Positions 1 to 62,821 of a stretch of 64,000 bases of DNA are shown here, piece by piece. This DNA comes from Bacteroidaceae bacterium (GTDB lineage: Bacteria; Bacteroidota; Bacteroidia; Bacteroidales; Bacteroidaceae): assembly GCA_017622495.1 (NCBI GenBank), contig JAGAQY010000006.1:424-64423 (forward strand). The letters run 5' to 3'. Each line of letters begins with the position of its first letter. The stretch's first letter is position 1. The notes beneath the pieces were generated by a model. That model ran no database searches and was not told the DNA's origin. It saw only the letters and a program-made list of their open reading frames with translations. The translations under genes and the position numbers were made by a program.

Positions 1-29
1 ATTTATGAACTTTTGCCAATAGGGGACAC
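1..29. repeat. third copy of the repeat arm found at 51898-51926
   Basis: ATTTATGAACTTTTGCCAATAGGGGA matches ATTTATGAACTTTCGCCAATAGGAGA at 24 of the first 26 positions. The window begins exactly at this repeat. Confidence 0.7.
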
Positions 30-75
30 TTAAAAAAGTATCAAGAGCAGGTTACGTATTGTTGAATACATGTAT

Positions 76-1353
76 TTATTCCTTTTCACCGAATATTACC
101 TCATAGAGGTCGGTGGGTAGTTTCTTGCGGATACGCTCTTTGCGCTTGCGAATGGTGGTGGGAGTGGTGTGGCCGATGTAGGCAATGACATTGTTGCTGT
201 AGCCCAGATAGGTGCAGAAGCAGCATACCAGCTCCTGATCATTCAGCTCAAGCCCCTCGTGCAGCGTGCTGCAAGCCTCCTTGAAGGAGTCGAAGAGCGT
301 GCTCTCCACATCACGAGTAGCCTCGTAAGCCATATCGTAGAGTTCCTTCTCCTTAATCTGCATGGCGTTAAGTTCCTCATAGCTGGTGGTATTCTCAAAG
401 GCACGGCGACCATCGGCAAGCGAGCGGCGCAGTATCAGTGTCTCGGGAAGGGAAAAGGTCTCCTTGTCCTCCTCTTCTGTAGTCATTGTCGTGGGGCTGG
501 GAAGTGGCGACTGCGGCTCCTCACGGACAAGGTGTCGGCGACGATAATGCTTGCGATAGTACCCTATGGCAAAGGGAGATAGGAGAATCAGCAACAGGAG
601 TATGCGATAGATACGCTGGTGCCGTTTCTGCGCCTTGAACTGAGGGTCGCGTTTCTGAGCCTCTGAAGCTCGCAGATTCTCCTTCACCTCAGGCTTGCCA
701 TTGGCAATGACATTATTCTTCAACTCATCTTTCAGCTCATCCATCGTCTGTTCCAAATAGAGTTTCCCATCACGTGCTTTAAAATGGAGTTGCTTGTAAT
801 GCTCGGCTGAGTCGCTCATACCTAACTTTTCATAGGTCTTCCACAATACATATCCGCTGGTATACTCAACGGATGATTGATGATGTGGCAGCCGCAAGGC
901 CAATTTAGCATAGTAAATGGCAGAGTCAAGCTCTTCGATATGCCAAAGTCCATCGGCCTTAAAAGAACAAAAGTGGGCATAAACAGGATCATCCTTAGGA
1001 GTAAGCCTCATACATTGCTCCAAATATTGTAAGGCAGCTCCATAGTTATGCCTTTGGCAAGATTCTATCCAATGCAGTTTATATAATGCCTCAGCACGTA
1101 AGGTGTCGTTCGCATCGTCACGCACTACGATATTCGCATAGTGATAGTAGGCTTGGTTGTATATTTCAATACTCTTTTCTTTTTGTCCTTCTGCCTCGGC
1201 TTTACGAGCTTGTCCGAAAGTATTAAAGGCTAGTCGCATCTCTTCAATTGCAGATAACGCTGAATTTTCGTTATTCATTGTCTGCCCTGACCGATTGCAC
1301 GACGTGAATGCGAGAGCAACGATAGTCAGCAGGGAATAGATGAATGTTTTCAT
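76..1353 (-). CDS. TPR-repeat lipoprotein-signal membrane protein with C-terminal helix-turn-helix (membrane-spanning one-component regulator candidate)
   Basis: The track ORF 76..1605 was trimmed to the internal ATG at 1353. That start gives MKTFIYSLLTIVALAFTSC, a lipoprotein-type signal. TPR-like Y/A-rich repeats follow, then one hydrophobic span (IYRILLLLILLSPFAIGYY). The C-terminus is HTH-like (LGYSNNVIAYIGHTTPTTIRKRKERIRKKL). A CAAAGATA box (reverse complement TATCTTTG) lies at 1404-1411. Confidence 0.55.
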   Translation of the reverse strand: MKTFIYSLLTIVALAFTSCNRSGQTMNNENSALSAIEEMRLAFNTFGQARKAEAEGQKEKSIEIYNQAYYHYANIVVRDDANDTLRAEALYKLHWIESCQRHNYGAALQYLEQCMRLTPKDDPVYAHFCSFKADGLWHIEELDSAIYYAKLALRLPHHQSSVEYTSGYVLWKTYEKLGMSDSAEHYKQLHFKARDGKLYLEQTMDELKDELKNNVIANGKPEVKENLRASEAQKRDPQFKAQKRHQRIYRILLLLILLSPFAIGYYRKHYRRRHLVREEPQSPLPSPTTMTTEEEDKETFSLPETLILRRSLADGRRAFENTTSYEELNAMQIKEKELYDMAYEATRDVESTLFDSFKEACSTLHEGLELNDQELVCCFCTYLGYSNNVIAYIGHTTPTTIRKRKERIRKKLPTDLYEVIFGEKE

Positions 1354-1555
1354 AGTGCAATGCATATATTCAGTGGTTACATATATAATGTGTTCGTCTG
1401 TTGCAAAGATAAGGCTTTTACAACAGACGAACACAAAAACGGGCGTGAAAAAAGCGTGACATGAGCGTGACAAATGCGTGACATTGGCCACACGTAGCGT
1501 GACATCGAAATCTTTTTTCCAAGGATTCCCCCGATGGAAAGGGCGTTTCTCTTTC

Positions 1556-2392
1556 TCAGCCCAGCATCTTCTCGGCCATAGCGAAGCCGTGGCGGTAGAG
1601 GGCATTCATCTTGTCCATGTTGGTCTCGATGCGGGCCACATCGACGGGATGGTCGGGGCGGACGACGGTGATGCGCCCCTCACGCTCGAGCTGCTCTACC
1701 CAGGTGAGCTGGGCATTGTATCGGACTCCACGGGTGCGCAGTGCCTCGCGCAGCTTGGGGTAGCGGCTATAGACGAACGGGGGGATGCGGGGCGGACGCT
1801 CTTCCTTGCGGTAGCCATGGTGGCGGGTGAGCACTACCACGGCATGCTCATAGCCCTGGGCGAAGGCGCGGGCGAGGGGGATGGAGTCGGCAATGCCGCC
1901 ATCGAGCATGGCACGGCCGTCGACATGGGCGATGGGGCAGGCAAAGGGCAGGGCCGAGGAAGCACGCACGATGTCGATGATGCGCTCGGGGTTCTCCTTC
2001 TCTTCCAGGTATACGGCTTCGCCCGTGAGGCAGTCGGTGGCTACGCTCTCTACGCGCATGGGGTTGGCGCGGTAGGCGGCGTAGTCGTAGGGCCAGAGGG
2101 TCTCGGGCAACTCGCGGTAGAGGAGCTCCATATCCATGATGCTGTGGTGGCGCAGGAGGTTGCGCACACCGAGGTAGTGGCGCTCGGCCTGCAGGTCGGC
2201 AAAGGTGTACTTGGCACGGCCACGCTGATGCGAGGCGAACGACAGGGCGTTGCTCGAGCCTGCCGACACGCCTACGAGGTAGGGAAAGGTGATGTGATGG
2301 TCGATCATCCAGTCGAGCACGCCGCTGGTGAATACACCGCGCATGCCGCCCCCTTCGAGCACAAGGGCTGTGTGTGTGAACCTGTCTGCCAT
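1556..2392 (-). CDS. patatin-like phospholipase
   Basis: Glycine-rich oxyanion motif LEGGGMRG, the GxSxG nucleophile motif GVSAG, and a later DGG motif. Confidence 0.85.
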   Translation of the reverse strand: MADRFTHTALVLEGGGMRGVFTSGVLDWMIDHHITFPYLVGVSAGSSNALSFASHQRGRAKYTFADLQAERHYLGVRNLLRHHSIMDMELLYRELPETLWPYDYAAYRANPMRVESVATDCLTGEAVYLEEKENPERIIDIVRASSALPFACPIAHVDGRAMLDGGIADSIPLARAFAQGYEHAVVVLTRHHGYRKEERPPRIPPFVYSRYPKLREALRTRGVRYNAQLTWVEQLEREGRITVVRPDHPVDVARIETNMDKMNALYRHGFAMAEKMLG

Positions 2393-2517
2393 GCTGTGCG
2401 TTTGTTTTTTTTACCAATTCTACGATTATTTCGCAAATATATAAAAATCATTTTGTAATTTCGCTCCGTGAAGTTGCTGCCGTAGCACGAATTTAGAAAA
2501 AATTAAGAATCCACTCT

Positions 2518-3297
2518 ATGTCTACCATTATCTATCCCTCTCCTATCTTTGGCCCTATAAGGAGCCGTCGCCTGGGCATATCGCTGGGTATCAATCTGCT
2601 GCCGGGTGACGGCAAGGTGTGTACCTTCGACTGTATCTATTGCGAGTGTGGCTTCAATGCCGAGCGCCGTCCCAAGCAGAAACTGCCCACACGCCATGAG
2701 GTAGCAGAAGCATTGGAAAAGAAATTGGTGCAGATGCAGGCCGAGGGCATGGCACCCGATGTACTGACATTCGCGGGAAACGGTGAGCCTACGGCGCACC
2801 CCGACTTTGCGGCTATCATAGATGATACGTTGCAGCTGCGCGACCGCTATTTCCCCCATGCCAAGGTGAGTGTGCTCACCAATGCCACGCGCATCAATAG
2901 GCCAGAGGTGTTTGAGGCGCTGAAGCGGGTAGACAACAATATCGTGAAGCTCGATACGGTGGACATGGCCTATATCGCCCGGGTAGACCGCCCCGTGGGC
3001 CACTATGACCTGGACGAACTCATCGAGTGCATGAGGGCCTTTGAGGGGCATTGTGTGGTGCAGACTATGTTTATGAGAGGCACCGATGCCGAAGGCGTGT
3101 CGGTAGACAATACCACGCCCCAGTATGTAGACCCGTGGCTCGATGCCGTGGAGAGCATAGCACCGCGTGAGGTGATGATATATACGATAGATCGTGAGAC
3201 GCCGTCGCACAATCTGCAGAAGGCCTTGCCTGAGCAGCTCGACGGTATCGTAGAGCGTCTCATATCTCGGGGTATCAAGGCCTCGGCTTCGTATTGA
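2518..3297 (+). CDS. radical SAM protein
   Basis: CxxxCxxC cluster motif CTFDCIYCEC near the N-terminus. Length is typical of a small radical SAM enzyme. Confidence 0.8.
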   Translation: MSTIIYPSPIFGPIRSRRLGISLGINLLPGDGKVCTFDCIYCECGFNAERRPKQKLPTRHEVAEALEKKLVQMQAEGMAPDVLTFAGNGEPTAHPDFAAIIDDTLQLRDRYFPHAKVSVLTNATRINRPEVFEALKRVDNNIVKLDTVDMAYIARVDRPVGHYDLDELIECMRAFEGHCVVQTMFMRGTDAEGVSVDNTTPQYVDPWLDAVESIAPREVMIYTIDRETPSHNLQKALPEQLDGIVERLISRGIKASASY

Positions 3298-3414
3298 TGT
3301 TTTGTTAGTCGCTGTGTGTGACTCTTATATATATATAATAGCATTGTCTTAAACCTTTCCTCGTCTCGGAGTGTTCTTATCGGGTAGAATATAACCCTAA
3401 AAAAAGACATCCGT

Positions 3415-3990
3415 ATGAAAAGTGTAAAAGGAACCTTGACCGAGAAGAACCTGTTGACCTCGTTTGCCGGCGAGTCGCAGGCCCGTATGCGCTATACCTA
3501 TTTTGCCGAGGAGGCCAGGCGCGAAGGCTACGAGCAGATAGCAGCCATCTTTCAGGAGACAGCCGAGCAGGAGAAGATGCATGCCGAGCGCATGTTCCGC
3601 TTCCTCGAAGGAGGCATGGTAGAGATACGTGCCGACTATCCTGCTGGAAAAATACAAACCACGATGGACAACCTGCGGGCTGCGGCGGCAGGGGAGCATG
3701 AAGAGTGGTATGAGATGTATCCCGTGTTTGCCGATGTAGCCGAAGATGAGGGCTTCAAGGAGATTGCCATCATGTATAGAGCCATCTGCGTGGCCGAGCA
3801 GCAACACGAAGAGCGCTACCTGAGGCTGTTGGAGAATATGGAGCGCGAGCACACCTTCCATCGTCCCGAACCCGTGACATGGCAATGCCGAAAGTGTGGA
3901 TATACATTCACCGGCAAGAAGGCGCCCGACCGCTGTCCAGCTTGCCTGCATCCCAAAGGATACTTCGAGGTGAAGGCCGACAACTACTGA
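3415..3990 (+). CDS. rbr: rubrerythrin
   Basis: Ferritin-like diiron ExxH motifs (EQEKMHAE, EHEEWYE). C-terminal rubredoxin-like CRKC...CPAC. Confidence 0.9.
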   Translation: MKSVKGTLTEKNLLTSFAGESQARMRYTYFAEEARREGYEQIAAIFQETAEQEKMHAERMFRFLEGGMVEIRADYPAGKIQTTMDNLRAAAAGEHEEWYEMYPVFADVAEDEGFKEIAIMYRAICVAEQQHEERYLRLLENMEREHTFHRPEPVTWQCRKCGYTFTGKKAPDRCPACLHPKGYFEVKADNY

Positions 3991-4047
3991 TAGGGTGCTG
4001 AGGCGAGGAATATGGTGCTGCATGAGCAGATTTCGTTCGCTATAGTA

Positions 4048-4078
4048 GGGTGGCGGGAGACTTCCGCTACCCTTTTTT
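4048..4078 (+). terminator. rho-independent terminator after rubrerythrin
   Basis: GGGTGGCGG / CCGCTACCC stem with one wobble, followed by TTTTTT. Confidence 0.6.
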
Positions 4079-4288
4079 GTGGGCTGACAGGGGGAGGGCG
4101 TGTGCTCTAAATTGACGTTTTTGCCACATAAAAGATGAGGAAATGGGGATTTTTGAGATTTTTTTTGCGCAAAAAAAGTTTTTCAGTGCATTTTTGTCAG
4201 AAATCCAAAAAAAATATTTGGAGCGAAAGAGAAAGTTTGTTTCCTTTGTAGCGCTTTAAGTTATTTATTCATTAAAAACATTACTATT

Positions 4289-4525
4289 ATGGCAGAAATT
4301 GAAGCAAGAGTAAAAGCTATTATCGTTGACAAGCTCGGTGTAGACGAGTCAGAAGTAACTCCTACCGCAAGCTTCACTAACGATCTCGGTGCAGATTCTT
4401 TGGATACAGTAGAGTTGATCATGGAGTTGGAGAAGGAATTCGGTATGTCAATTCCCGATGATCAGGCTGAGAAGATCGCTACCGTACAGGACGCTATCGA
4501 CTACATCGCTAACAACGCGAAGTAA
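4289..4525 (+). CDS. acpP: acyl carrier protein
   Basis: 78 aa with the canonical phosphopantetheine site [17 protein letters not shown]. Confidence 0.95.
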
Positions 4526-4549
4526 TCAGAGTACAGCGATAGTACTATA

Positions 4550-4595
4550 AAAAGTCGTATTAATTGGTCAAAATCCGATTATACGACTTTTTATT
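4550..4595 (+). terminator. long hairpin between acpP and rnc (terminator and/or RNase III processing site)
   Basis: AAAAGTCGTAT(T)AATTGG pairs with CCGATTATACGACTTTT. That is about 17 bp with one bulge and one G-U pair, with loop TCAAAAT. TTATTATT follows. The hairpin ends about 22 nt before the rnc ATG. Confidence 0.55.
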
Positions 4596-4613
4596 ATTAA
4601 ACCCCATTCCCCT

Positions 4614-5483
4614 ATGCATCGCCTGGCCGATTACATACACTACCTCTTCAGCAGCGACAAGGAGTTTCGTCGCAAGCTGCGCCGTATCTTGGGATTTTAT
4701 CCTCGCGAGGTCTCTGTCTATCGTGAGGCGCTCATGCACCGCTCGCTCAACTATCACCGTCAAGGTAATCAGAAGAAAGACAATGAGCGGCTCGAGTATC
4801 TGGGCGATGCCATCATAGAGGCTGTAGTGAGCGACATCCTCTACCACCAGTTTCCCGGCAAGAAGGAGGGCTTCCTCACCTCTGTGCGAAGCAAGATAGT
4901 ACAGCGCAGCAGTCTCAACCGTCTGGCCAAGGAGACGGGGCTGGTCGACCTCATACAGTCGACTCACATCAACCACACACACAACAGCTTCATCCCCGGC
5001 AACGCCTTTGAGGCACTAGTGGGAGCCATCTACCTCGACCGTGGTTATGCCTGGTGCTACCGCTTCTTCGAGCATCGCCTGATAGGAAAGCATATCGACC
5101 TCAAGCAGGTGGCCAAGGAGGACGACAACTTCAAGAGCAAGCTCATCGAGTGGAGCCAGAAGACACAGTTTGCCGTCATGTTCGAGCTTGTGGACGAGAA
5201 CACGGTAGGCACCAACAGCCCCACCTTCCGTAGCCGCGTATGCATAGAAGGTCTCGAGTTTGGTACCGGTTTCGGCTATTCCAAGAAAGAGAGTCAGCAG
5301 CTTGCCGCCAAAGAGGCCATGCGCCACATCCGCAAGAAAGATGACTTGTACAAAAATGCCGTTGGGCACTATGAAGCGCGTACAGCTCCCGCAGTAGCAC
5401 CCTCCAAGGAGGTGCAGGAGCATATCCTCGAGGCATCAGACGAACCGCATGCTGCACCTGCTGAAGGCAAAGCCACTGCATAA
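4614..5483 (+). CDS. rnc: ribonuclease III
   Basis: RNase III signature ERLEYLGDA. A C-terminal dsRBD-like region is present (GYSKKESQQLAAKEAM), followed by an Ala/Pro-rich tail. Confidence 0.9.
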   Translation: MHRLADYIHYLFSSDKEFRRKLRRILGFYPREVSVYREALMHRSLNYHRQGNQKKDNERLEYLGDAIIEAVVSDILYHQFPGKKEGFLTSVRSKIVQRSSLNRLAKETGLVDLIQSTHINHTHNSFIPGNAFEALVGAIYLDRGYAWCYRFFEHRLIGKHIDLKQVAKEDDNFKSKLIEWSQKTQFAVMFELVDENTVGTNSPTFRSRVCIEGLEFGTGFGYSKKESQQLAAKEAMRHIRKKDDLYKNAVGHYEARTAPAVAPSKEVQEHILEASDEPHAAPAEGKATA

Positions 5484-49590: not shown

Positions 49591-50378
49591 AGCGGTGTGT
49601 CGATCCATTTAATATTACCATGCACGGCTATCTCCTTGGGTAGTTGCATGTAGTCTCCAAACATCCTTGATAGATAGCTATGTGCACTCTTGGGAGCATA
49701 GAAGATGCTATCCTCGAAGGGTATCTCCACCAAGGGGAATATATCAGCTACACACCTCTCGGCCTTGTATATCATCCCGAAGGTATGATGATAGTTGCTT
49801 CCCTTATGGAATAGGGAAACATATCCTCTGAAAAGGGGGAATACGACACGCGTAAGGACTGCGTAGTTGAAGTTGTATAGCCAACGATGCTTGTACACCT
49901 TGTGGTGGCACAGGTTGACGTATAGTCTGTTGGCAATGCGATATAGCGCATACGGCGAGCGCTCCAGAGGGAATATGTCGATGAAGCATCCTTTGTGCTT
50001 CATCTCAAACGCAAAGCTCTCTTCGATGCATGAGTGCTTGTCGCGCACCTTGGCGTAGAGATGGGGATAGTCCTTATCGGTGCTTCTGTCTTGAAGCATG
50101 TACTGTTCGGGGAGTTCCTCGCGCAGTAGGGGCAACAGACGTAGATAGTCATCGCGCAGCATTTCGATGTCAAGGTCATCGTCCCAAGGAATGAATCCCC
50201 CATGGCGTACGGCCCCCAGCAGTGTGCCCGAGCTGAGCCAGTAGGGTATGTCGTGGGCACGGCAGATCTTATCCACCGCTTTCAGTATGTCGAGCATCCG
50301 TAGCTGCCCTCTACGCAGTAGCGAGCCGTCGGGACTGTATTTCTCGCGCAGTTCTTGCTGCACTTTTCGGTCTATCAT
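49587..50378 (-). CDS. licD: LicD-family phospho-substituent (phosphocholine-type) transferase
   Basis: LicD motif IPYWLSSGTLLGAVRHGGFIPWDDDLDIEM. ATG 50378 forms an ATGA overlap with the upstream stop. The track ORF extends to 50408. Confidence 0.8.
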   Translation of the reverse strand: MIDRKVQQELREKYSPDGSLLRRGQLRMLDILKAVDKICRAHDIPYWLSSGTLLGAVRHGGFIPWDDDLDIEMLRDDYLRLLPLLREELPEQYMLQDRSTDKDYPHLYAKVRDKHSCIEESFAFEMKHKGCFIDIFPLERSPYALYRIANRLYVNLCHHKVYKHRWLYNFNYAVLTRVVFPLFRGYVSLFHKGSNYHHTFGMIYKAERCVADIFPLVEIPFEDSIFYAPKSAHSYLSRMFGDYMQLPKEIAVHGNIKWIDTPL

Positions 50379-51340
50379 ATCCACCTCCTTTTCATCCTCT
50401 TCAGCCATTGCGTCATGGCTCTAATTCCTAAATATAGTCTGCTGAACATGGGATTGGCAAACCGCAGTGCAAAGCATTCCCACCATTGCCCCTTGTAGCC
50501 GTAATTGCGGATGTCCTCTATCACCTGCAGGTGTAGCTGAGTCTTTTCTCTGGTCTTGTGGTAATAATAGTGCCCTACAATCACGTGGTTCATCATCAGT
50601 ACATTGGCAATGCAGTAGGGCATGCACCTCTCGCGATAAGGCTCGGGAATCACACTTTTCTTGAAGTGATACGACCTGCCGAGATAGTCGAGCGTATAGT
50701 TGAACGTGTTCATGATACCCTCAGTGTTGTCGTTGTAGTGATATACCATTGTATGTGCTATGCGTATCTTCCTATCGCATGCAAAGGCCAGTCGGAGGTT
50801 CATGATGAAGTCCTCGCCCATTACAAAGTCGCGTGGGAGGTCGAATGTCTCTTCGTCGAACAACTCTCTTCTGAACAATTTGGCATAGGGCGATGAGGCT
50901 ATGCTATAGGCATATATCCGCTTGACGAGTTCCAACTTGTCCATCTCGCCATCGGCGTATTGCTTGGGATTACGGTCATAGTTCCCGATGATGATGTCAT
51001 ATTCCTCACCGGCCAAGGCATACAGGTCGTGTAGCGCTGTGGACGGCAGCGAGTCATCAGAGTCTACGAAGGTGATATATTCGCTTCCTGCCGATTCGCT
51101 TACGCCTAATGCTCGCGCCTTGTTGGCTCCGCCATTGGGGATATGGAATACACGCACGCGATGGTCATTTTCGGCGTATTCATCGCATATTTTCCCCGAA
51201 CTGTCGGGACTGCCATCATCGATGAGCAGCAGTTCGAAATCCTCGAATGTCTGTGCCAGAATACTGTCTACACAGCCATGCAAGAATCTCTCCGCCTTGT
51301 ATACGGGAACCACTACGGATATTTTCGGCGACTGCTTCAT
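50375..51340 (-). CDS. GT2-family glycosyltransferase
   Basis: ISVVVPVYKAERFLHGCV, LLIDDGSPDSS and VDSDD. Confidence 0.85.
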   Translation of the reverse strand: MKQSPKISVVVPVYKAERFLHGCVDSILAQTFEDFELLLIDDGSPDSSGKICDEYAENDHRVRVFHIPNGGANKARALGVSESAGSEYITFVDSDDSLPSTALHDLYALAGEEYDIIIGNYDRNPKQYADGEMDKLELVKRIYAYSIASSPYAKLFRRELFDEETFDLPRDFVMGEDFIMNLRLAFACDRKIRIAHTMVYHYNDNTEGIMNTFNYTLDYLGRSYHFKKSVIPEPYRERCMPYCIANVLMMNHVIVGHYYYHKTREKTQLHLQVIEDIRNYGYKGQWWECFALRFANPMFSRLYLGIRAMTQWLKRMKRRWI

Positions 51341-51463
51341 ACCTCTGTCTTCTATCTGTTGCCATGACTGTTCGTCTTGCGAAGATACAATATCCCCTCC
51401 AAGACTGCAAATTTTTCTTCGGAAAGTTTATACACGCTCTATGATTGCCATCAGTACCTGAGG

Positions 51464-51502
51464 ATCTCTATGGCGAAAGTTCATAAATCGGTTGGCAATG
51501 GC
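51464..51502. repeat. left arm of a roughly 40-bp imperfect inverted repeat
   Basis: ATCTCTATGGCGAAAGTTCATAAATCGGTTGGCAATGGC is the reverse complement of 51884-51924. There are 2 mismatches and 2 single-nt indels, and the 18-bp core is perfect. Confidence 0.85.
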
Positions 51503-51679
51503 TTGCTTTATATTGGCACAGCACAGCGAGGCAATGATAAGCTTCATGGACTGACCAAGTGCCTGGGCAGGTCTTAACCATCACCGAGCGAGAAGTCATC
51601 TTAAAGTGTTTTTTTATTGGAGGGAGCACAGATTCTTTTAACCCTCTGATTGTCTATACGGGACAAAGGGAAAAACTAC

Positions 51680-51761
51680 CGCCACCGCGGTGGCGTGATA
51701 GCGTCACCGCGGTGACAGAAAAGTGCCACCGCGGTGAAAACAAAACGCCACCGCGGTGGCG
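51680..51761. promoter_or_regulatory. array of four CACCGCGGTG palindromes phased at exactly 22 bp (candidate protein-binding array)
   Basis: CGCCACCGCGGTGGCG (51680-51695), GTCACCGCGGTGAC (51703-51716), CACCGCGGTG (51727-51736) and CGCCACCGCGGTGGCG (51746-51761). Dyad centres fall at 51687.5, 51709.5, 51731.5 and 51753.5. Confidence 0.6.
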
Positions 51762-51883
51762 GTGCAGTGAATGGCGGTTCGTCAGCAAACAGCGATGTGG
51801 AGAAACGAGCATAGAGGTGTATCTGTGGATAAAAAGGCGGCAAGAGTGAGGTTCCCGATACCTCGCTTATTTATGATGGCCTT

Positions 51884-51924
51884 GCCAATGCCAACCTATT
51901 TATGAACTTTCGCCAATAGGAGAT
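51884..51924. repeat. right arm of the inverted repeat
   Basis: GCCAATGCCAACCTATTTATGAACTTTCGCCAATAGGAGAT. A degenerate tandem half-copy (TATTTATGATGGCCTTGCCAAT) lies just inside it. Confidence 0.85.
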
Positions 51925-51966
51925 GCATTATGGATGCTGCGGCTCGGTGAGAACGGATAGATAGTA

Positions 51967-53100
51967 TTAATGCAGTGACTCCTGTAGGAATCGGAGGGCA
52001 TCTGTACGCCTTTCTTCAAGGATGCGGTATACCGGCTCGTAATCTATCGGGCAGAGTAGGGCCTTTTTATTTTGTTTGTAGTCTTCGTACGAGGTGACCA
52101 GCCGTCCCTCCAAGCCGAATACCTGCAACAGAGATTCAAAACGTGTCATTCCACGGCTTTTGTTGCCAATGACTACGAATGGTTTTCTATACAATATAGA
52201 GAATATACAAGCATGATAACTATCGGTAACCACGAACTCTGCATCACGGAATCCTTTCAACCATTGTTCAACAGGTGGCTGTATGCGCTCTTCCAATGTT
52301 GCTTTATGATCCTCGGTGCGCGAGTTCGTATGAAAAGGTTGTAATCCTTTCTCGCAGGCAATGTCATTGACCAATGCATCTTTTTCTTCACTCCTGTCGA
52401 GTACATAGCACATCATATTGCCTGGACTCGGCGGAGTATCTTCCCCAATCAGTCGAGTATAATCCTCTGCATTCAAGAGCAATGTAGGATCTATCATGCA
52501 CATGGCCTCTACGCCTAAGTACTTTTGACAAAGCCCGACACCAGACACCTCACGTACACTTATGGCATCGAACATACGAGCCATAGCAGCGACATTTGCC
52601 GTCTCTGCTTTATTGTATTCCCATTCGTCAGTGCCGAATGATGCCGCATATGCAAGGCGCTTGACATTCCAGCCTTCTGTAAATTTCAAGAAGGAGTTTT
52701 CGACCCCAGGAAATGGTCTGGCATAACGTGCACGCCATATCTGATCGCTTCCGACAACGAATGCGTCAAAATCCTGTACGCCAATCTCTGTCATGTTGCG
52801 TACCATCTTCCTGCTGATGTGCCGGCTGACGAACCTATTGGTGTGCATCGTACGTGCAGCCCATAGCTTCCTATAATAGGTGGGCGAATAGATGATGGCG
52901 TTCTTCCCCATCAAGCATCTTTTTATGGTACCTTTGACAAACATCTCTATCCGCCGCTTCAGCGAATATTCAAATTGCTTGTCCTCATCGATGACATATA
53001 CCTCATGCCCCATATCGTGCAATGTGTGCAGCAAGGCATACGACTGCAATATGCCACCATAGTTGGTTCCTAACGGAAGCGATAAGATGCCTATTCTCAT
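51967..53100 (-). CDS. polysaccharide pyruvyl transferase family protein
   Basis: The start MRIGILSLPLGTNYGGILQSYAL is typical of the family. VVTDSYHACIF motif present. Confidence 0.8.
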   Translation of the reverse strand: MRIGILSLPLGTNYGGILQSYALLHTLHDMGHEVYVIDEDKQFEYSLKRRIEMFVKGTIKRCLMGKNAIIYSPTYYRKLWAARTMHTNRFVSRHISRKMVRNMTEIGVQDFDAFVVGSDQIWRARYARPFPGVENSFLKFTEGWNVKRLAYAASFGTDEWEYNKAETANVAAMARMFDAISVREVSGVGLCQKYLGVEAMCMIDPTLLLNAEDYTRLIGEDTPPSPGNMMCYVLDRSEEKDALVNDIACEKGLQPFHTNSRTEDHKATLEERIQPPVEQWLKGFRDAEFVVTDSYHACIFSILYRKPFVVIGNKSRGMTRFESLLQVFGLEGRLVTSYEDYKQNKKALLCPIDYEPVYRILEERRTDALRFLQESLH

Positions 53101-60738: not shown

Positions 60739-60805
60739 TGATGGATGATGGTTGATAGAACCATCCTGATGGGATTTTTTCAGTTTTCAATTGTAATTGT
60801 GACAA

Positions 60806-62821
60806 TTACTTGCGCTTATCTTCTAATGAGAGGCTCTCGTTGCGGATGAATGTCATGGGCACAATCTCGAAGTAGTCGTGCATAAACTGTGCTTTACCGT
60901 CATCACCCTCGAACACGCTCTTGAAACGTATCCAATGCTCACCCTCCGAGAGATACTTGGTTGTTATCACCTTGCGTATGGTCGATGCCTCCTCGCGCAC
61001 GATGACCGAACCATTATACTTATATGTGGTGGGTGCCTTCATGTAACCACGGTTCTTCATCTCCTTGTCGTTGGCCACGCCATTGTCGTCAGTTTCAGAA
61101 TCTTTTACCCATCCTATCGAGGGGTGGCTTGCCGCAATTCTAAGGTCTACGGGTATGCCTGTCACTTCACCGTCTACATAGAACTGGATAATGTGTCGAA
61201 CCGTCTCAGACTGATATCCCATGCGTATCTCATAGGTGCCGGCTGGTACGGGCGGCAGTTTATATGCAAAGTCCAACGCACCCAGTGTCATCATCTCGTC
61301 GCCTTGGTAGTTGTGCCAGTTGGTATAAGGACACAGGTAGAAGTGCATGGTCTCCTCTGAGTATACCTCCATGTTGGTGCAGTAGTTGTTGGGGATATAT
61401 ATTTCTCCGGCATTCTTTCCCGCCTTGTCGCGGCTTCTCCAGCGGATGTCGTTATTGGTGAGCTCAGGGCACAATGTAGAAGCATCAAATCGGATGATAC
61501 AGTTCAGGATATTTCCTGCCATCTCATCTTCGTTATAAATGAGCACCTTATCGATGACGTTGATAGAGCCATTCAGTGCTTCAGGAGCAAAGTCCGTATA
61601 CAATGTATCCAGTGTGCGGAATTCGGCTGGGTCATATACCTTTACGTTCACGTGCTCGGCCATTTCGGGCAGGTTAGCTCCGTCGCGTGTGTAGTTGATG
61701 AGGTATGTAGACTGATACTTGGGGTTGCTGCGCGGCACGGTCACCTTCATCAGTCGATTGTTCATGGTCTCGTAAAACTCGTTTCGGTCAGAGTAGTTCA
61801 CGAGATTCTTCTCCGAATCGAAGTTGTTGAGTGCTATCTTGTAGCATGTGAGTCGCGAGTATGGCACTTTTTTGTTGATGAGGTGATATCCCACAAATTG
61901 GTTTAGTGGATTGTCCTTGCTTGTATAGGGGGCCGATGGGTCTGCATTGGGGTACCACTCGGCACTCTTGTCAATGAGGTCTTCGAGGGTGAATACACCA
62001 TATTTGTTAAACACTTGGTCACTCTCCACGAACGCCGTGAATCCGTAATATCTGTCGGCAGGATAGGGACAATATCCTTGCAACTTGATGTCGAGGTGCT
62101 GCTTGTCGCCATCGGTATATGTCTCGTCCTTGTAGAGCTGCATCATCTCATCATATCCAGTGAGCTCAAGAGCCTCACTGAAGATGCGGAAATATTCATG
62201 CTCCTTAACCTGTGTGGGTACCATGTTGGTCGAGGGGTTCAGTACACTGGCCAGGGTGTGTACTACACCGTTCTCCACCTCTTCGTCCTTTGCGATAATC
62301 TGCGCCGTTCCGTTGATGAGCAGCACGGCCATGTTGTTCTCGTCCACGTCGTATCCCAAGCTCAGGTAGCGGTCGTTCATATTCATCGTAGGTATAATGT
62401 CACCCTCCATGTCGGTGGTGAGGTATTGGTCGGCGAGGATATGCGTTTGCGATATAACCTTACACATCGAGTCTGACAGTTCACTCAACTCAGGCGATGT
62501 GATTCCCGTCCATATAGGGTCACCAGCAGCCAGCGTAGTCCAGTAGATGGAGTCCTGTTCATACAGGTAGCGTTCAATTGCATCGTTGGTGGGTGCAAAG
62601 CAGGTGTACTCGCCATATGCTTTCATCAGGCTCAGGCATTCGCCTCTGCGGAGTATCTCTATAAAACTGCTATAGATTTCCTCGTTAGACTCCAAGAATG
62701 AAGCTATCGTGTGTCCTACGAACGTGTAGCGTGCCTCTTCCTCAATACGCTCCTTACAACCGCAGAGTACCATCACGAGGAGCGCGAGCATGGCAATAGA
62801 TTTCGAGTTTAACTGTTTCAT
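60806..62821 (-). CDS. fasciclin (FAS1)-domain lipoprotein
   Basis: Trimmed to the ATG at 62821, which gives MKQLNSKSIAMLALLVMVLCGC, a lipobox. The FAS1 motif YTCFAPTNDAIERYL is present. A TAATTTTG box (reverse complement of 62881-62888) lies upstream. Confidence 0.6.
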   Translation of the reverse strand: MKQLNSKSIAMLALLVMVLCGCKERIEEEARYTFVGHTIASFLESNEEIYSSFIEILRRGECLSLMKAYGEYTCFAPTNDAIERYLYEQDSIYWTTLAAGDPIWTGITSPELSELSDSMCKVISQTHILADQYLTTDMEGDIIPTMNMNDRYLSLGYDVDENNMAVLLINGTAQIIAKDEEVENGVVHTLASVLNPSTNMVPTQVKEHEYFRIFSEALELTGYDEMMQLYKDETYTDGDKQHLDIKLQGYCPYPADRYYGFTAFVESDQVFNKYGVFTLEDLIDKSAEWYPNADPSAPYTSKDNPLNQFVGYHLINKKVPYSRLTCYKIALNNFDSEKNLVNYSDRNEFYETMNNRLMKVTVPRSNPKYQSTYLINYTRDGANLPEMAEHVNVKVYDPAEFRTLDTLYTDFAPEALNGSINVIDKVLIYNEDEMAGNILNCIIRFDASTLCPELTNNDIRWRSRDKAGKNAGEIYIPNNYCTNMEVYSEETMHFYLCPYTNWHNYQGDEMMTLGALDFAYKLPPVPAGTYEIRMGYQSETVRHIIQFYVDGEVTGIPVDLRIAASHPSIGWVKDSETDDNGVANDKEMKNRGYMKAPTTYKYNGSVIVREEASTIRKVITTKYLSEGEHWIRFKSVFEGDDGKAQFMHDYFEIVPMTFIRNESLSLEDKRK

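What the first reader, a model, noticed from the sequence alone, without database searches (positions are those of the whole stretch)
51464..51924. Inverted-repeat-flanked 460-bp segment splitting the glycan locus: candidate invertible switch or MITE
The minus-strand glycan gene run is otherwise tightly packed, with ATGA overlaps or gaps of 4-12 nt. It is interrupted by a 626-bp non-coding gap (51341-51966).

Inside the gap is a roughly 40-bp imperfect inverted repeat:
- Left arm, 51464-51502: ATCTCTATGGCGAAAGTTCATAAATCGGTTGGCAATGGC.
- Right arm, 51884-51924: GCCAATGCCAACCTATTTATGAACTTTCGCCAATAGGAGAT.
- The 18-bp core is perfect. Overall there are 2 mismatches and 2 single-nt indels.
- The arms enclose about 380 bp with no credible ORF.

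A third copy of the arm sits at window positions 1-29. The window starts exactly there, as happens when an assembly breaks at a multicopy repeat.

IR-flanked segments in front of polysaccharide genes are the classic Bacteroidales phase-variation architecture. Here the element would gate the five distal genes: GT2, LicD, GT2, GT2 and the GT10 fucosyltransferase. The flippase and precursor genes upstream would not be affected.

Caveats:
- I find no TAnnTTTG box in either orientation inside the segment.
- No recombinase gene is in the window.
- A MITE, or a protein-binding insulator carried by a MITE, is an equally live explanation.
Basis: partly seen in the sequence, partly recalled or inferred. 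Interest (0 to 1): 0.75.

Follow-up and report, generated by a model that had tools for sequence, protein, structure and literature searches.

The report
Gene-less mobile-element copy inside glycan locus
The inverted-repeat-flanked segment is a miniature, gene-less copy of a previously undescribed 2.7-kb mobile element of gut Bacteroidales, which carries a DNA-binding-protein gene and a helicase gene; it is not a flip-flop promoter switch for the sugar-coat genes.

Summary
There are 32-nt arms at 94% complementarity, about 40 nt each with indels, 381 bp apart, in a 626-bp gap of a minus-strand glycan operon. A third arm sits at window 1-29.

The arms are terminal inverted repeats of a multicopy family in ruminant-gut Bacteroidaceae MAGs:
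- at least 16 assemblies carry them, with at least 19 loci in one genome;
- 49 outward-facing pairs of 129-1082 bp were found, and no other arrangement;
- 46 of 49 are intergenic.

Four independent loci carry 2.6-2.8-kb versions bounded by the same arms. Each encodes an HU-HIG DNA-binding protein and a VapE-like helicase, transcribed divergently. A 4 x 22-bp CACCGCGGTG palindrome array sits behind the HU promoter.

Window 51646-51850 aligns colinearly with that promoter, array, leader and start codon. The element is therefore an internal-deletion (MITE) derivative. Its promoter box is destroyed but all four palindromes are intact.

Evidence against an invertible switch:
- no Bacteroidetes promoter box inside the segment;
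- a near-consensus promoter for the distal genes lies outside it;
- every assembly read shows one orientation;
- no recombinase was detected among 40 window ORFs.

On the operon-sense strand the array forms a -72.8 kcal/mol hairpin followed by a U-run. This probably acts as a terminator or insulator (inferred).

The parts
51464..51502 (.). Left terminal inverted repeat (arm); conserved core 51471-51502. It corresponds to the VapE-side end of the full-length elements.
51884..51924 (.). Right terminal inverted repeat (arm); conserved core 51884-51915. It corresponds to the HU-side end of the full-length elements.
51469..51470 (.). TA dinucleotide abutting the left arm. It may be a target-site duplication or the outermost part of the repeat.
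   Evidence: all 38 resolved pairs have TA next to (T)TGGCG...CGCCA(A). No empty site at nucleotide resolution was found.
51917..51918 (.). TA dinucleotide abutting the right arm (after CGCCA-A).
51503..51647 (.). Left inner segment. It is a mosaic of short stretches shared with other family members, including weak matches to the VapE-side subterminal region of L140.
51648..51659 (+). Decayed -7 promoter region of the former HU-HIG gene. GATTGTCTATAC here corresponds to GATTATCTTTGC (box TATCTTTG) in full-length elements.
   Evidence: Alignment A1; no TAnnTTTG in either strand.
51681..51768 (.). Array of four 22-bp units. Each carries the palindrome CACCGCGGTG, at 51683-92, 51705-14, 51727-36 and 51749-58.
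   Evidence: Palindromes are 93-96% conserved against 58-63% for spacers.
51769..51883 (+). Remnant of the HU-HIG 5' leader and first codons, followed by the HU-side subterminal sequence. ATGGCAAAAAAG of the parents has become GTGGATAAAAAG, with the GTG at 51825-51827.
   Evidence: Alignment A1.
51663..51763 (-). On the operon-sense strand, a long G+C-rich hairpin formed by the array (-72.8 kcal/mol, z = -10.5) followed by GUAGUUUUUCCCUUUG. This is intrinsic-terminator-like.
   Evidence: Function is inferred, not shown.
51380..51411 (-). Near-consensus Bacteroidetes promoter (TTTG-N20-TATCTTCG) for GT2 and the four genes behind it. It lies outside the element, about 40 nt upstream of the GT2 ATG.
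   Evidence: Relatives without the element have TACCTTTG or TATCTTTG at the same relative place.
1..29 (+). Right arm of a second family member, of the AGTACT-array subfamily. The rest of that element lies upstream of the window start.
   Evidence: L139; orthologous complete 399-bp element at L045 2084-2482.
50375..51340 (-). GT2 glycosyltransferase gene, the first of the five distal genes (GT2, LicD, GT2, GT2, GT10 fucosyltransferase).
51967..53100 (-). Polysaccharide pyruvyl-transferase gene, the last gene of the upstream block.

Best explanation
**What it is.** The segment is a non-autonomous, internally deleted copy (a MITE) of a TIR-bounded mobile cassette found in ruminant-gut Bacteroidaceae.

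**The full-length cassette (2.6-2.8 kb).** It has the same roughly 35-nt arms. It carries two divergent genes: an HU-HIG DNA-binding protein and a VapE-like SF3-type helicase. Four 22-bp-phased CACCGCGGTG palindromes sit just downstream of the HU promoter. It has no recognisable transposase.

**What the window copy keeps.** It keeps both arms, the HU promoter region (now mutated), all four palindromes, the HU leader and the mutated start codon. It sits in a pre-existing intergenic space, upstream of the distal genes' own promoter. It is present in every read copy of this lineage that includes this region, always in one orientation.

**How it most likely acts now (inferred).**
- It acts in cis on transcription of the glycan locus.
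- On the operon-sense strand the array folds into a very stable hairpin followed by a U-run.
- The two arms can pair into a roughly 45-bp RNA stem.
- Read-through from the precursor, flippase and pyruvyl-transferase block would therefore be terminated or processed, and the glycosyltransferase block would run from its own promoter.

**Status of the steps.**
- Shown: family membership, parent-derivative relation, absence of an internal promoter, constant orientation in assemblies.
- Inferred: termination or insulation, and mobilisation in trans.
For: **The arms are family TIRs.**
- An 18-mer of the arm recovers full arms in at least 16 Bacteroidales assemblies.
- There are 49 pairs within 1.2 kb, all outward-facing, with sizes from 129 to 1082 bp.
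- 46 of 49 are intergenic, in all gene configurations.
- They fall into subfamilies of 13, 9, 7 and 4 members.

**Parent elements exist.**
- Four loci carry them: L086 1377-4197, L140 2341-5017, L141 2274-4971 and L142 2348-4920.
- Each is bounded by the arms and carries HU-HIG (PF18291) and a VapE-like gene (PF05272, DUF5906/DUF3874).
- They are 74-87% identical to one another over their full length, in four unrelated contexts.

**The window copy derives from them.**
- Window 51646-51850 is colinear with the promoter, array, leader and start codon of the HU gene (A1).
- A second MITE, L042, in the same genome as L086, shares 186 nt at 89% with L086.

**Locus context.**
- Relatives with the same gene order have a 178-bp gap with no arm and a consensus -7 box (L117/L118).
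- The window's own promoter lies outside the element.

**Orientation.** It is identical in ENA, Logan and JGI assemblies and in 99%-identity strain variants.

**Structure.** Hairpin plus U-run, and arm pairing. RNase III is encoded in the window.
Against: - No transposase with matching ends was found. About 300 ORFs of at least 200 aa around the arms were compared only with one another; no multicopy protein stood out and only a few were put through Pfam. None lies in the four full-length elements. Mobility is therefore inferred from distribution only.
- No empty site at nucleotide resolution was found, so the TA flanks cannot be proven to be a target-site duplication.
- In part of the family the inverted repeat extends 30-140 nt beyond the arms, so the true termini are uncertain.
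- Termination or insulation is only a sequence prediction. No expression data were available.
- Perfect retention of all four palindromes next to a destroyed promoter suggests a function beyond a passive relic. That function could be protein binding rather than termination.
Confidence: 0.8

Rival explanations
1. **Trans-acting protein-binding array.** The four phased palindromes are still bound by a dimeric DNA-binding protein. The candidate is an HU-HIG(wHTH) or VapE-like protein made by a full-length element elsewhere in the genome. Binding would create a roadblock or insulator, or a titration site, that tunes read-through into the glycosyltransferase block. This is not exclusive of the MITE identity.
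For: - Spacing is exactly 22 bp in 35 of 49 family members, and the palindrome differs by subfamily.
- The same architecture sits just downstream of the HU promoter in all four full-length elements.
- It also occurs in 3 of 4 cassettes read from cultured Bacteroides, three of them in B. finegoldii, with other palindromes.
- Palindromes are 93% conserved against 63% for spacers. The window copy has 40 of 40 palindrome positions intact, while its -7 box has 3 of 8 positions changed.
- Self-symmetric variants such as CTCCGCGGAG occur. These fit dimer binding better than pairing between units.
Against: - No binding data exist.
- It is unknown whether this genome holds a cognate full-length element.
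- Burroughs et al. 2017 (PMC5499826) argued that HU-HIG proteins are unlikely to be sequence-specific factors.
- Palindrome conservation is equally explained by selection for the hairpin.
Confidence: 0.3
2. **Inert relic.** The copy is a decaying MITE with no effect on the glycan locus. Its structures are by-products of its origin.
For: - The HU promoter box and start codon are destroyed.
- The arms are imperfect: 94% with indels.
- The inner-left part is only weakly similar to any other copy.
- The insertion is present in every copy read that includes this region, including the 99%-identity variants.
Against: - All four palindromes are perfect despite 36-54% divergence elsewhere against the other copies.
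- The hairpin plus U-run lies in the sense orientation of an operon. Any transcript crossing it should be affected.
Confidence: 0.2
3. **Invertible promoter switch (inverton).** A site-specific recombinase acting in trans flips 51503-51883 between the arms and switches the five distal genes on and off.
For: - Inverted repeats flank a roughly 380-bp segment in front of polysaccharide genes.
- The arms are better conserved than the inner sequences across loci. This could also fit a shared recombinase site.
- MITEs such as Correia elements have been reported to invert (PMC10969869).
Against: - No TAnnTTTG box on either strand inside the segment.
- Promoter boxes are depleted inside family members, and no element has a full -33/-7 pair.
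- The distal genes' promoter lies outside the segment.
- Only one orientation is seen in all assemblies read. Logan contigs run through the right arm into the inner segment without a branch.
- Three orthologous pairs of other family members are colinear.
- No recombinase domain was detected among 40 window ORFs.
- The arms differ by 2 mismatches and 2 indels.
Confidence: 0.04

Closest known systems
Correia / NEMIS elements of Neisseria (MITEs)
   Same: - Short terminal inverted repeats, with TA at both borders.
- Many intergenic copies, often inside operons.
- A binding site for an HU/IHF-family protein in the middle.
- Transcripts fold on the repeats and are cut by RNase III.
- Effects on neighbouring gene expression. 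All from the review PMC10969869.
   Different: - There is no sequence relation and the host is a different phylum.
- The centre here is a 4 x 22-bp palindrome array, not one IHF site.
- The gene-bearing relatives carry HU-HIG and helicase genes, not a transposase.
- The TA duplication is unproven here.
BrickBuilt MITE of Porphyromonas gingivalis (PMC4596501)
   Same: - A Bacteroidales MITE.
- Always intergenic, with about 19 copies.
- Short inverted ends enclose an internal tandem repeat of 23 nt, and overall length varies.
   Different: - BrickBuilt repeats are 1-23 head-to-tail units without palindromes, and they carry promoter activity.
- Here there are 2-4 units of exactly 22 bp, each with a palindrome.
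- The window copy has no promoter box.
- A gene-bearing parent is identified here.
Mobile insertion cassettes (MICs, e.g. MIC231 of Bacillus cereus): TIR-bounded units with passenger genes and no transposase (from own knowledge)
   Same: The 2.6-2.8-kb elements are bounded by the family TIRs and carry two non-transposase genes.
   Different: - For MICs the cognate IS is known. Here no IS with these ends was found.
- The passenger genes look like a replication/DNA-binding module.
Bacteroides invertible polysaccharide promoters (Mpi-type invertons; from own knowledge)
   Same: Inverted repeats flank a few hundred bp next to polysaccharide genes.
   Different: - No internal promoter.
- The promoter of the downstream genes lies outside the segment.
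- Only one orientation is seen.
- The arms are imperfect.
- The arm sequence is unrelated to the known inverton repeat consensus.
Rep-ori modules of phage-inducible chromosomal islands and iteron plasmids (from own knowledge)
   Same: Phased repeated sites (22-bp spacing is the classic iteron spacing) lie next to a gene for an SF3-type helicase or initiator. The repeat sequence differs between lineages.
   Different: - The sites here are palindromes, not direct iterons.
- They lie in the 5' leader of the HU gene.
- Replication has never been tested.
- The element is bounded by TIRs rather than att sites.

Membership tests
MITE | Terminal inverted repeats | tested here: met
   32-nt arms at 94% complementarity. 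The same arms flank all 49 pairs.
MITE | Small size and no coding capacity | tested here: met
   About 460 bp. The only ORF is a 96-aa GTG ORF through the palindromes with no Pfam hit.
MITE | Many dispersed, mostly intergenic copies | tested here: met
   At least 16 assemblies and at least 19 loci in one genome; 46 of 49 intergenic.
MITE | Target-site duplication | tested here: inconclusive
   TA lies at both borders in all 38 resolved pairs. TA could be part of the repeat. The nearest locus without the element is too diverged (76% aa) to define the junction.
MITE | Longer related element sharing ends and internal sequence | tested here: met
   Four 2.6-2.8-kb elements with the same arms; window 51646-51850 is colinear with them.
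MITE | Cognate transposase identified | tested here: not met
   None in the full-length elements. About 300 neighbouring ORFs were compared only with one another, with no multicopy protein standing out, and only a few were put through Pfam; 40 window ORFs were scanned against Pfam. ISfinder was not available.
Bacteroidales invertible promoter (inverton) | Inverted repeats flanking 100-700 bp | tested here: met
Bacteroidales invertible promoter (inverton) | Promoter (-7 TAnnTTTG) inside the invertible segment | tested here: not met
   None on either strand. Family-wide depletion, with no full -33/-7 pairs.
Bacteroidales invertible promoter (inverton) | Both orientations present in sequence data | tested here: inconclusive
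   Only one orientation in all ENA, Logan and JGI contigs read. Assemblies cannot show minor populations, and raw reads were not available.
Bacteroidales invertible promoter (inverton) | Site-specific recombinase nearby | tested here: not met
   No recombinase or transposase domain in 40 window ORFs. A global recombinase elsewhere cannot be tested.
Intrinsic (Rho-independent) terminator | G+C-rich hairpin followed by a U-run on the transcribed strand | tested here: met
   Pattern scan: 6 sites against 1.2 expected, 5 of them on the minus strand, all at the array. The hairpin is -72.8 kcal/mol and is followed by GUAGUUUUUCCCUUUG.
Intrinsic (Rho-independent) terminator | Transcripts end there | not testable with these tools
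   No RNA data.
Iteron-type origin / rep-ori module | Phased repeated sites next to an initiator or helicase gene | tested here: met
   22-bp phasing. In the full-length elements the array lies between the HU-HIG and VapE-like genes. The VapE-like protein matches phage helicase/primase families and PDB 7pds.
Iteron-type origin / rep-ori module | Supports replication that depends on the adjacent protein | not testable with these tools
   This needs an experiment.

The most novel reading that the evidence does not exclude
**Claim.** The arms, the 22-bp-phased palindrome array and the HU-HIG/VapE-like gene pair define a previously undescribed class of Bacteroidales mobile element that needs no canonical transposase.

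- The helicase-like protein and the sequence-specific HU-HIG(wHTH) protein would act on the array as an origin or operator, and with the arms, to replicate or move the cassette.
- The abundant gene-less copies, including the one in this glycan locus, would be satellites that keep only the cis sites and are maintained or moved in trans.
- This would give the rapidly diversifying, so far enigmatic HU-HIG proteins a concrete job. It would also explain why each lineage has its own palindrome.
Probability: 0.2. Interest if true: 0.8.

Novelty: new variant of a known kind. Interest (0 to 1): 0.5.

Why it matters
**For this locus.**
- It removes a tempting but wrong annotation: a phase-variable glycan switch.
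- It replaces that annotation with a testable one. A fixed mobile-element remnant probably separates two transcription units of a fucosylated, pyruvylated, phosphocholine-type glycan locus.

**More generally.**
- It links three things that had no stated connection: a very abundant repeat family in uncultured ruminant Bacteroidaceae, the HU-HIG proteins whose function is unknown (PMC5499826), and the VapE/BT4734-type helicase genes that accompany them in Bacteroides genomes.
- The strict 4 x 22-bp palindrome arrays, with lineage-specific palindromes, give a direct experimental handle for binding, replication and mobilisation assays.
- These repeats also break metagenome assemblies, including at this window's start.

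Tried and rejected
**Searches that found nothing useful**
- Rfam at gathering threshold on the whole window found nothing. At permissive E-values there were only generic hairpin (miRNA-precursor) hits far below threshold.
- blastn of the gap against plasmids gave no match.
- The arm pattern in viral contigs gave 12 hits. None has a convincing arm: two matches at the 6-mismatch limit, both single-copy, read as chance.
- A literature search for the arm sequence found no papers.

**Search for a transposase**
- Distant arm pairs enclose ordinary genes (L043, L048).
- Genes next to unpaired arms are housekeeping genes.
- An all-against-all comparison of about 300 neighbouring ORFs found only orthologues, but most were never put through a domain search.

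**Search for an empty site**
- Exact-protein look-ups of both flanking genes, and of a 99% variant, all carry the element.
- The 76%-identity relative lacks the element but is too diverged to define the junction.
- The 86% relative has a different downstream gene and another repeat array.

**Ideas rejected**
- *The arm element inserted into a short palindromic 'motif B' element.* Rejected because motif B pairs never occur without arms between them.
- *The window is part of JAFTVE010000013.1.* Rejected because identity is only 86%.
- *The B. finegoldii HU/VapE cassettes share these arms.* They do not.

**Other checks**
- The sigma-70 promoter scan is not informative for Bacteroidetes.
- A metagenome scan with an inner-specific 24-mer found one contig, with the same locus and orientation.

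Full report
**1.

- The gap between the GT2 gene (50375-51340, minus) and the pyruvyl-transferase gene (51967-53100, minus) is 626 bp. The other genes of the run overlap or are 4-12 nt apart.
- Inside the gap, the repeat finder reports arms 51471-51502 and 51884-51915: 32 nt, 94% complementary, 381 nt apart. With single-base indels the repeat reaches 51464 and 51924.
- The arm core is far beyond chance. A 22-mer with up to 3 mismatches gives 2 hits against 0.00 expected. A 16-mer gives 3 hits against 0.42 expected.
- A third copy lies at window 2-23.

**2. The arms are the ends of a multicopy family**

- It returned full arms in at least 16 Bacteroidales assemblies. These are mostly ruminant hindgut Bacteroidaceae MAGs. 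Loci per genome were at least 19 in JAFTVE, 14 in CANBEE and 13 in CAZMZC.
- About 27 further loci in unrelated taxa have the 18-mer only and no arm. That number matches chance.
- A 32-nt fuzzy search found 128 arms. Whenever two lie within 1.2 kb they face outward: 49 pairs and no other configuration. Sizes are 129-130 bp (9 copies), a spread from 268 to 635 bp, and single cases of 846 and 1082 bp.
- 46 of 49 are intergenic, between convergent, tandem and divergent genes alike.
- Inner sequences fall into subfamilies of 13, 9, 7 and 4 members, plus singletons such as the window copy.
- All 38 resolved pairs have TA next to (T)TGGCG...CGCCA(A), with a variable (TA)n.
- In part of the family the inverted repeat runs 30-140 nt further out.

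**3. A gene-bearing parent**

Four loci in unrelated contexts carry the same arms 2.6-2.8 kb apart:

| Locus | Coordinates |
|---|---|
| L086 | 1377-4197 |
| L140 | 2341-5017 |
| L141 | 2274-4971 |
| L142 | 2348-4920 |

- Each encloses a 207-aa HU-HIG gene (PF18291).
- Each also encloses a divergent 430-454-aa VapE-like gene (PF05272 with DUF5906/DUF3874). It matches the helicase halves of phage primase-helicases and PDB 7pds.
- The four are 74-87% identical over their whole length.
- None encodes a recognisable transposase.
- Between the genes, just downstream of a TATCTTTG (in L142 TACCTTTG) -7 box that faces the HU gene, lies the same 4 x 22-bp array of CACCGCGGTG-type palindromes.

**4. 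The window copy is a deletion derivative**

- Alignment A1 shows window 51646-51850 colinear with the promoter, array, 5' leader and first codons of the HU gene.
- GATTATCTTTGC has become GATTGTCTATAC, and ATGGCAAAAAAG has become GTGGATAAAAAG.
- Another miniature copy, L042, lies in the same genome as L086 and shares 186 nt at 89% with it.
- This is the usual relation between a MITE and its parent.

**5. The array is the family's hallmark and is under constraint**

- Among the 49 elements, 35 have a central tandem array of period 22 bp (31 cases) or 44 bp (4 cases) with 2-4 units. All 35 belong to the 40 elements longer than 260 bp.
- The palindrome differs by subfamily: CACCGCGGTG, AGTACT pairs, ATATCCACGGATAT, AAACTGCAGTTT, TCACCGGGGTGA and GAAAAAAAATTTTC.
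- In A1 the palindromes are 93% identical between copies. Spacers are 63% and the leader 55%.
- The window copy keeps 40 of 40 palindrome positions, although 3 of 8 positions of its -7 box have changed.
- Divergent HU/VapE-type (BT4734-type) gene pairs in cultured Bacteroides also have 4 x 22-bp arrays upstream of the HU gene. This holds for three B. finegoldii loci, each with its own palindrome, though not with these arms. One Bacteroides sp. locus has a long hairpin instead.

**6. Tests of the switch model**

- No TAnnTTTG box exists on either strand of 51300-52000.
- Across the family only 19 of 49 inner segments have any such box and none has a TTTG-N17-23-TAnnTTTG pair. Density is 1.27 per kb inside, against 3.14 per kb in flanking intergenic DNA.
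- A near-consensus promoter (TTTG-N20-TATCTTCG, 51411-51380, minus) lies outside the element, about 40 nt before the GT2 ATG.
- Relatives with the same gene order but no element (L117/L118, 178-bp gap) or another GT2 (L115, 70-bp gap) have consensus boxes at the same relative place. The break in the operon and the distal promoter therefore predate the insertion.
- The same locus was read in 14 ENA, Logan and JGI contigs that reach the inner segment, including 99%-identity strain variants from other studies. All have one orientation.
- Logan contigs run from the flank through the right arm into the inner segment without a branch. They stop only in the left arm, which is identical to other copies.
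- Three orthologous pairs of other members are colinear.
- Forty window ORFs contain no recombinase or transposase domain.
- Caveat: look-ups hide contigs with the same neighbours, and assemblies cannot show minor orientations.

**7. How it probably acts (inference)**

- The glycan genes are on the minus strand. On that strand the array folds into a hairpin of -72.8 kcal/mol (z = -10.5) followed by GUAGUUUUUCCCUUUG.
- The whole element folds with the two arms paired (-189 kcal/mol, z = -12).
- A transcript leaving the pyruvyl-transferase gene should therefore be terminated, or cut in the double-stranded stem. RNase III is encoded at 4614-5483.
- The five glycosyltransferase genes would start from their own promoter.
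- The perfect palindromes leave room for a second, non-exclusive mechanism: binding of a cognate protein made by a full-length element.

**8. Comparison with known systems**

- The element works like a Correia-type MITE: terminal repeats, TA borders, a central site for an HU/IHF-family protein, and RNase III substrates (PMC10969869).
- It also resembles BrickBuilt, the P. gingivalis MITE with an internal 23-nt repeat (PMC4596501).
- The full-length form fits the definition of a mobile insertion cassette.
- It fails defining features of Bacteroides invertons.
- HU-HIG proteins were described as rapidly diversifying and of unknown function (PMC5499826).
- BT4734/VirE proteins are primase-helicases of mobile-element origin (PMC11724360).
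- I found no description of TIR-bounded HU-HIG/VapE cassettes, of their 22-bp arrays, or of this arm sequence.

**9. Limits**

- No transposase, no proven target duplication, no read-level or RNA data, and no complete genome of the window's organism.
- The window is not the JAFTVE MAG: identity is 86%.
- Copy numbers are lower bounds from a truncated scan of related species.

Noticed in passing
L138 799-865 and 1889-1955 (Bacteroides finegoldii NZ_OY725904.1): A perfect 67-nt inverted repeat (100% complementary) flanks a 1.0-kb segment. The segment holds an HU-family gene and its 4 x 22-bp CACTnnAGTG array, next to a BT4734-family gene and a glycan gene cluster. Perfect long repeats of this kind are what an actively inverting segment would look like.
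   Followed up: no
L135 3084-3171; L136 3169-3257 and 2348-2426; L138 1633-1720: Cultured B. finegoldii has divergent HU / VapE-type (BT4734-type) gene pairs set among housekeeping genes. Each has four 22-bp units with its own palindrome upstream of the HU gene. L136 has a second 22-bp array downstream of the HU gene.
   Followed up: partly
L113 6134-6672: In the 86%-identical relative, the position after the pyruvyl-transferase gene holds a different array (GTTCTGATTACGTAATCAGAAC-type palindromes). The downstream genes differ, so the glycan locus ends there.
   Followed up: no
window 51103-51182 versus L131: A JGI metagenome contig of the same locus (98-99% identical) lacks 80 bp inside the GT2 gene. 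This would shift the frame. It is either a natural null allele or an assembly error.
   Followed up: no
window 1443-1484; L140 1359-1424: An 11/22-bp tandem repeat (GCGTGACAAAA) lies at the 5' end of the 509-aa ORF without Pfam hits (76-1605, minus). A similar repeat lies upstream of a 423-aa Pfam-less gene next to the full-length element in L140. Related lipoprotein-like proteins recur next to arms in several genomes.
   Followed up: no
L005 1-2822 versus window 1-376 and 60805-62746: In the CANBEE MAG, the flank of the window-start element (97% identical) is joined through a single arm to a fasciclin-domain gene. That gene is 80% identical to one lying 60 kb away in the window. This may be a rearrangement with a breakpoint in an element, or a paralogue.
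   Followed up: partly
window 4614-5483: An RNase III gene is present. This enzyme cuts the paired terminal repeats of MITE-containing transcripts in Neisseria.
   Followed up: no
L086 3761-3763: The HU-HIG gene of the L086 full-length element has an in-frame TAG between the HU domain and the C-terminal winged-helix part. The copies in L140-L142 are intact at 207 aa.
   Followed up: partly
L016, L043 (record titles): Two contigs carrying typical family members are binned in MAGs labelled Lysinibacillus and Eubacteriales. These are probably mis-binned Bacteroidaceae contigs.
   Followed up: no
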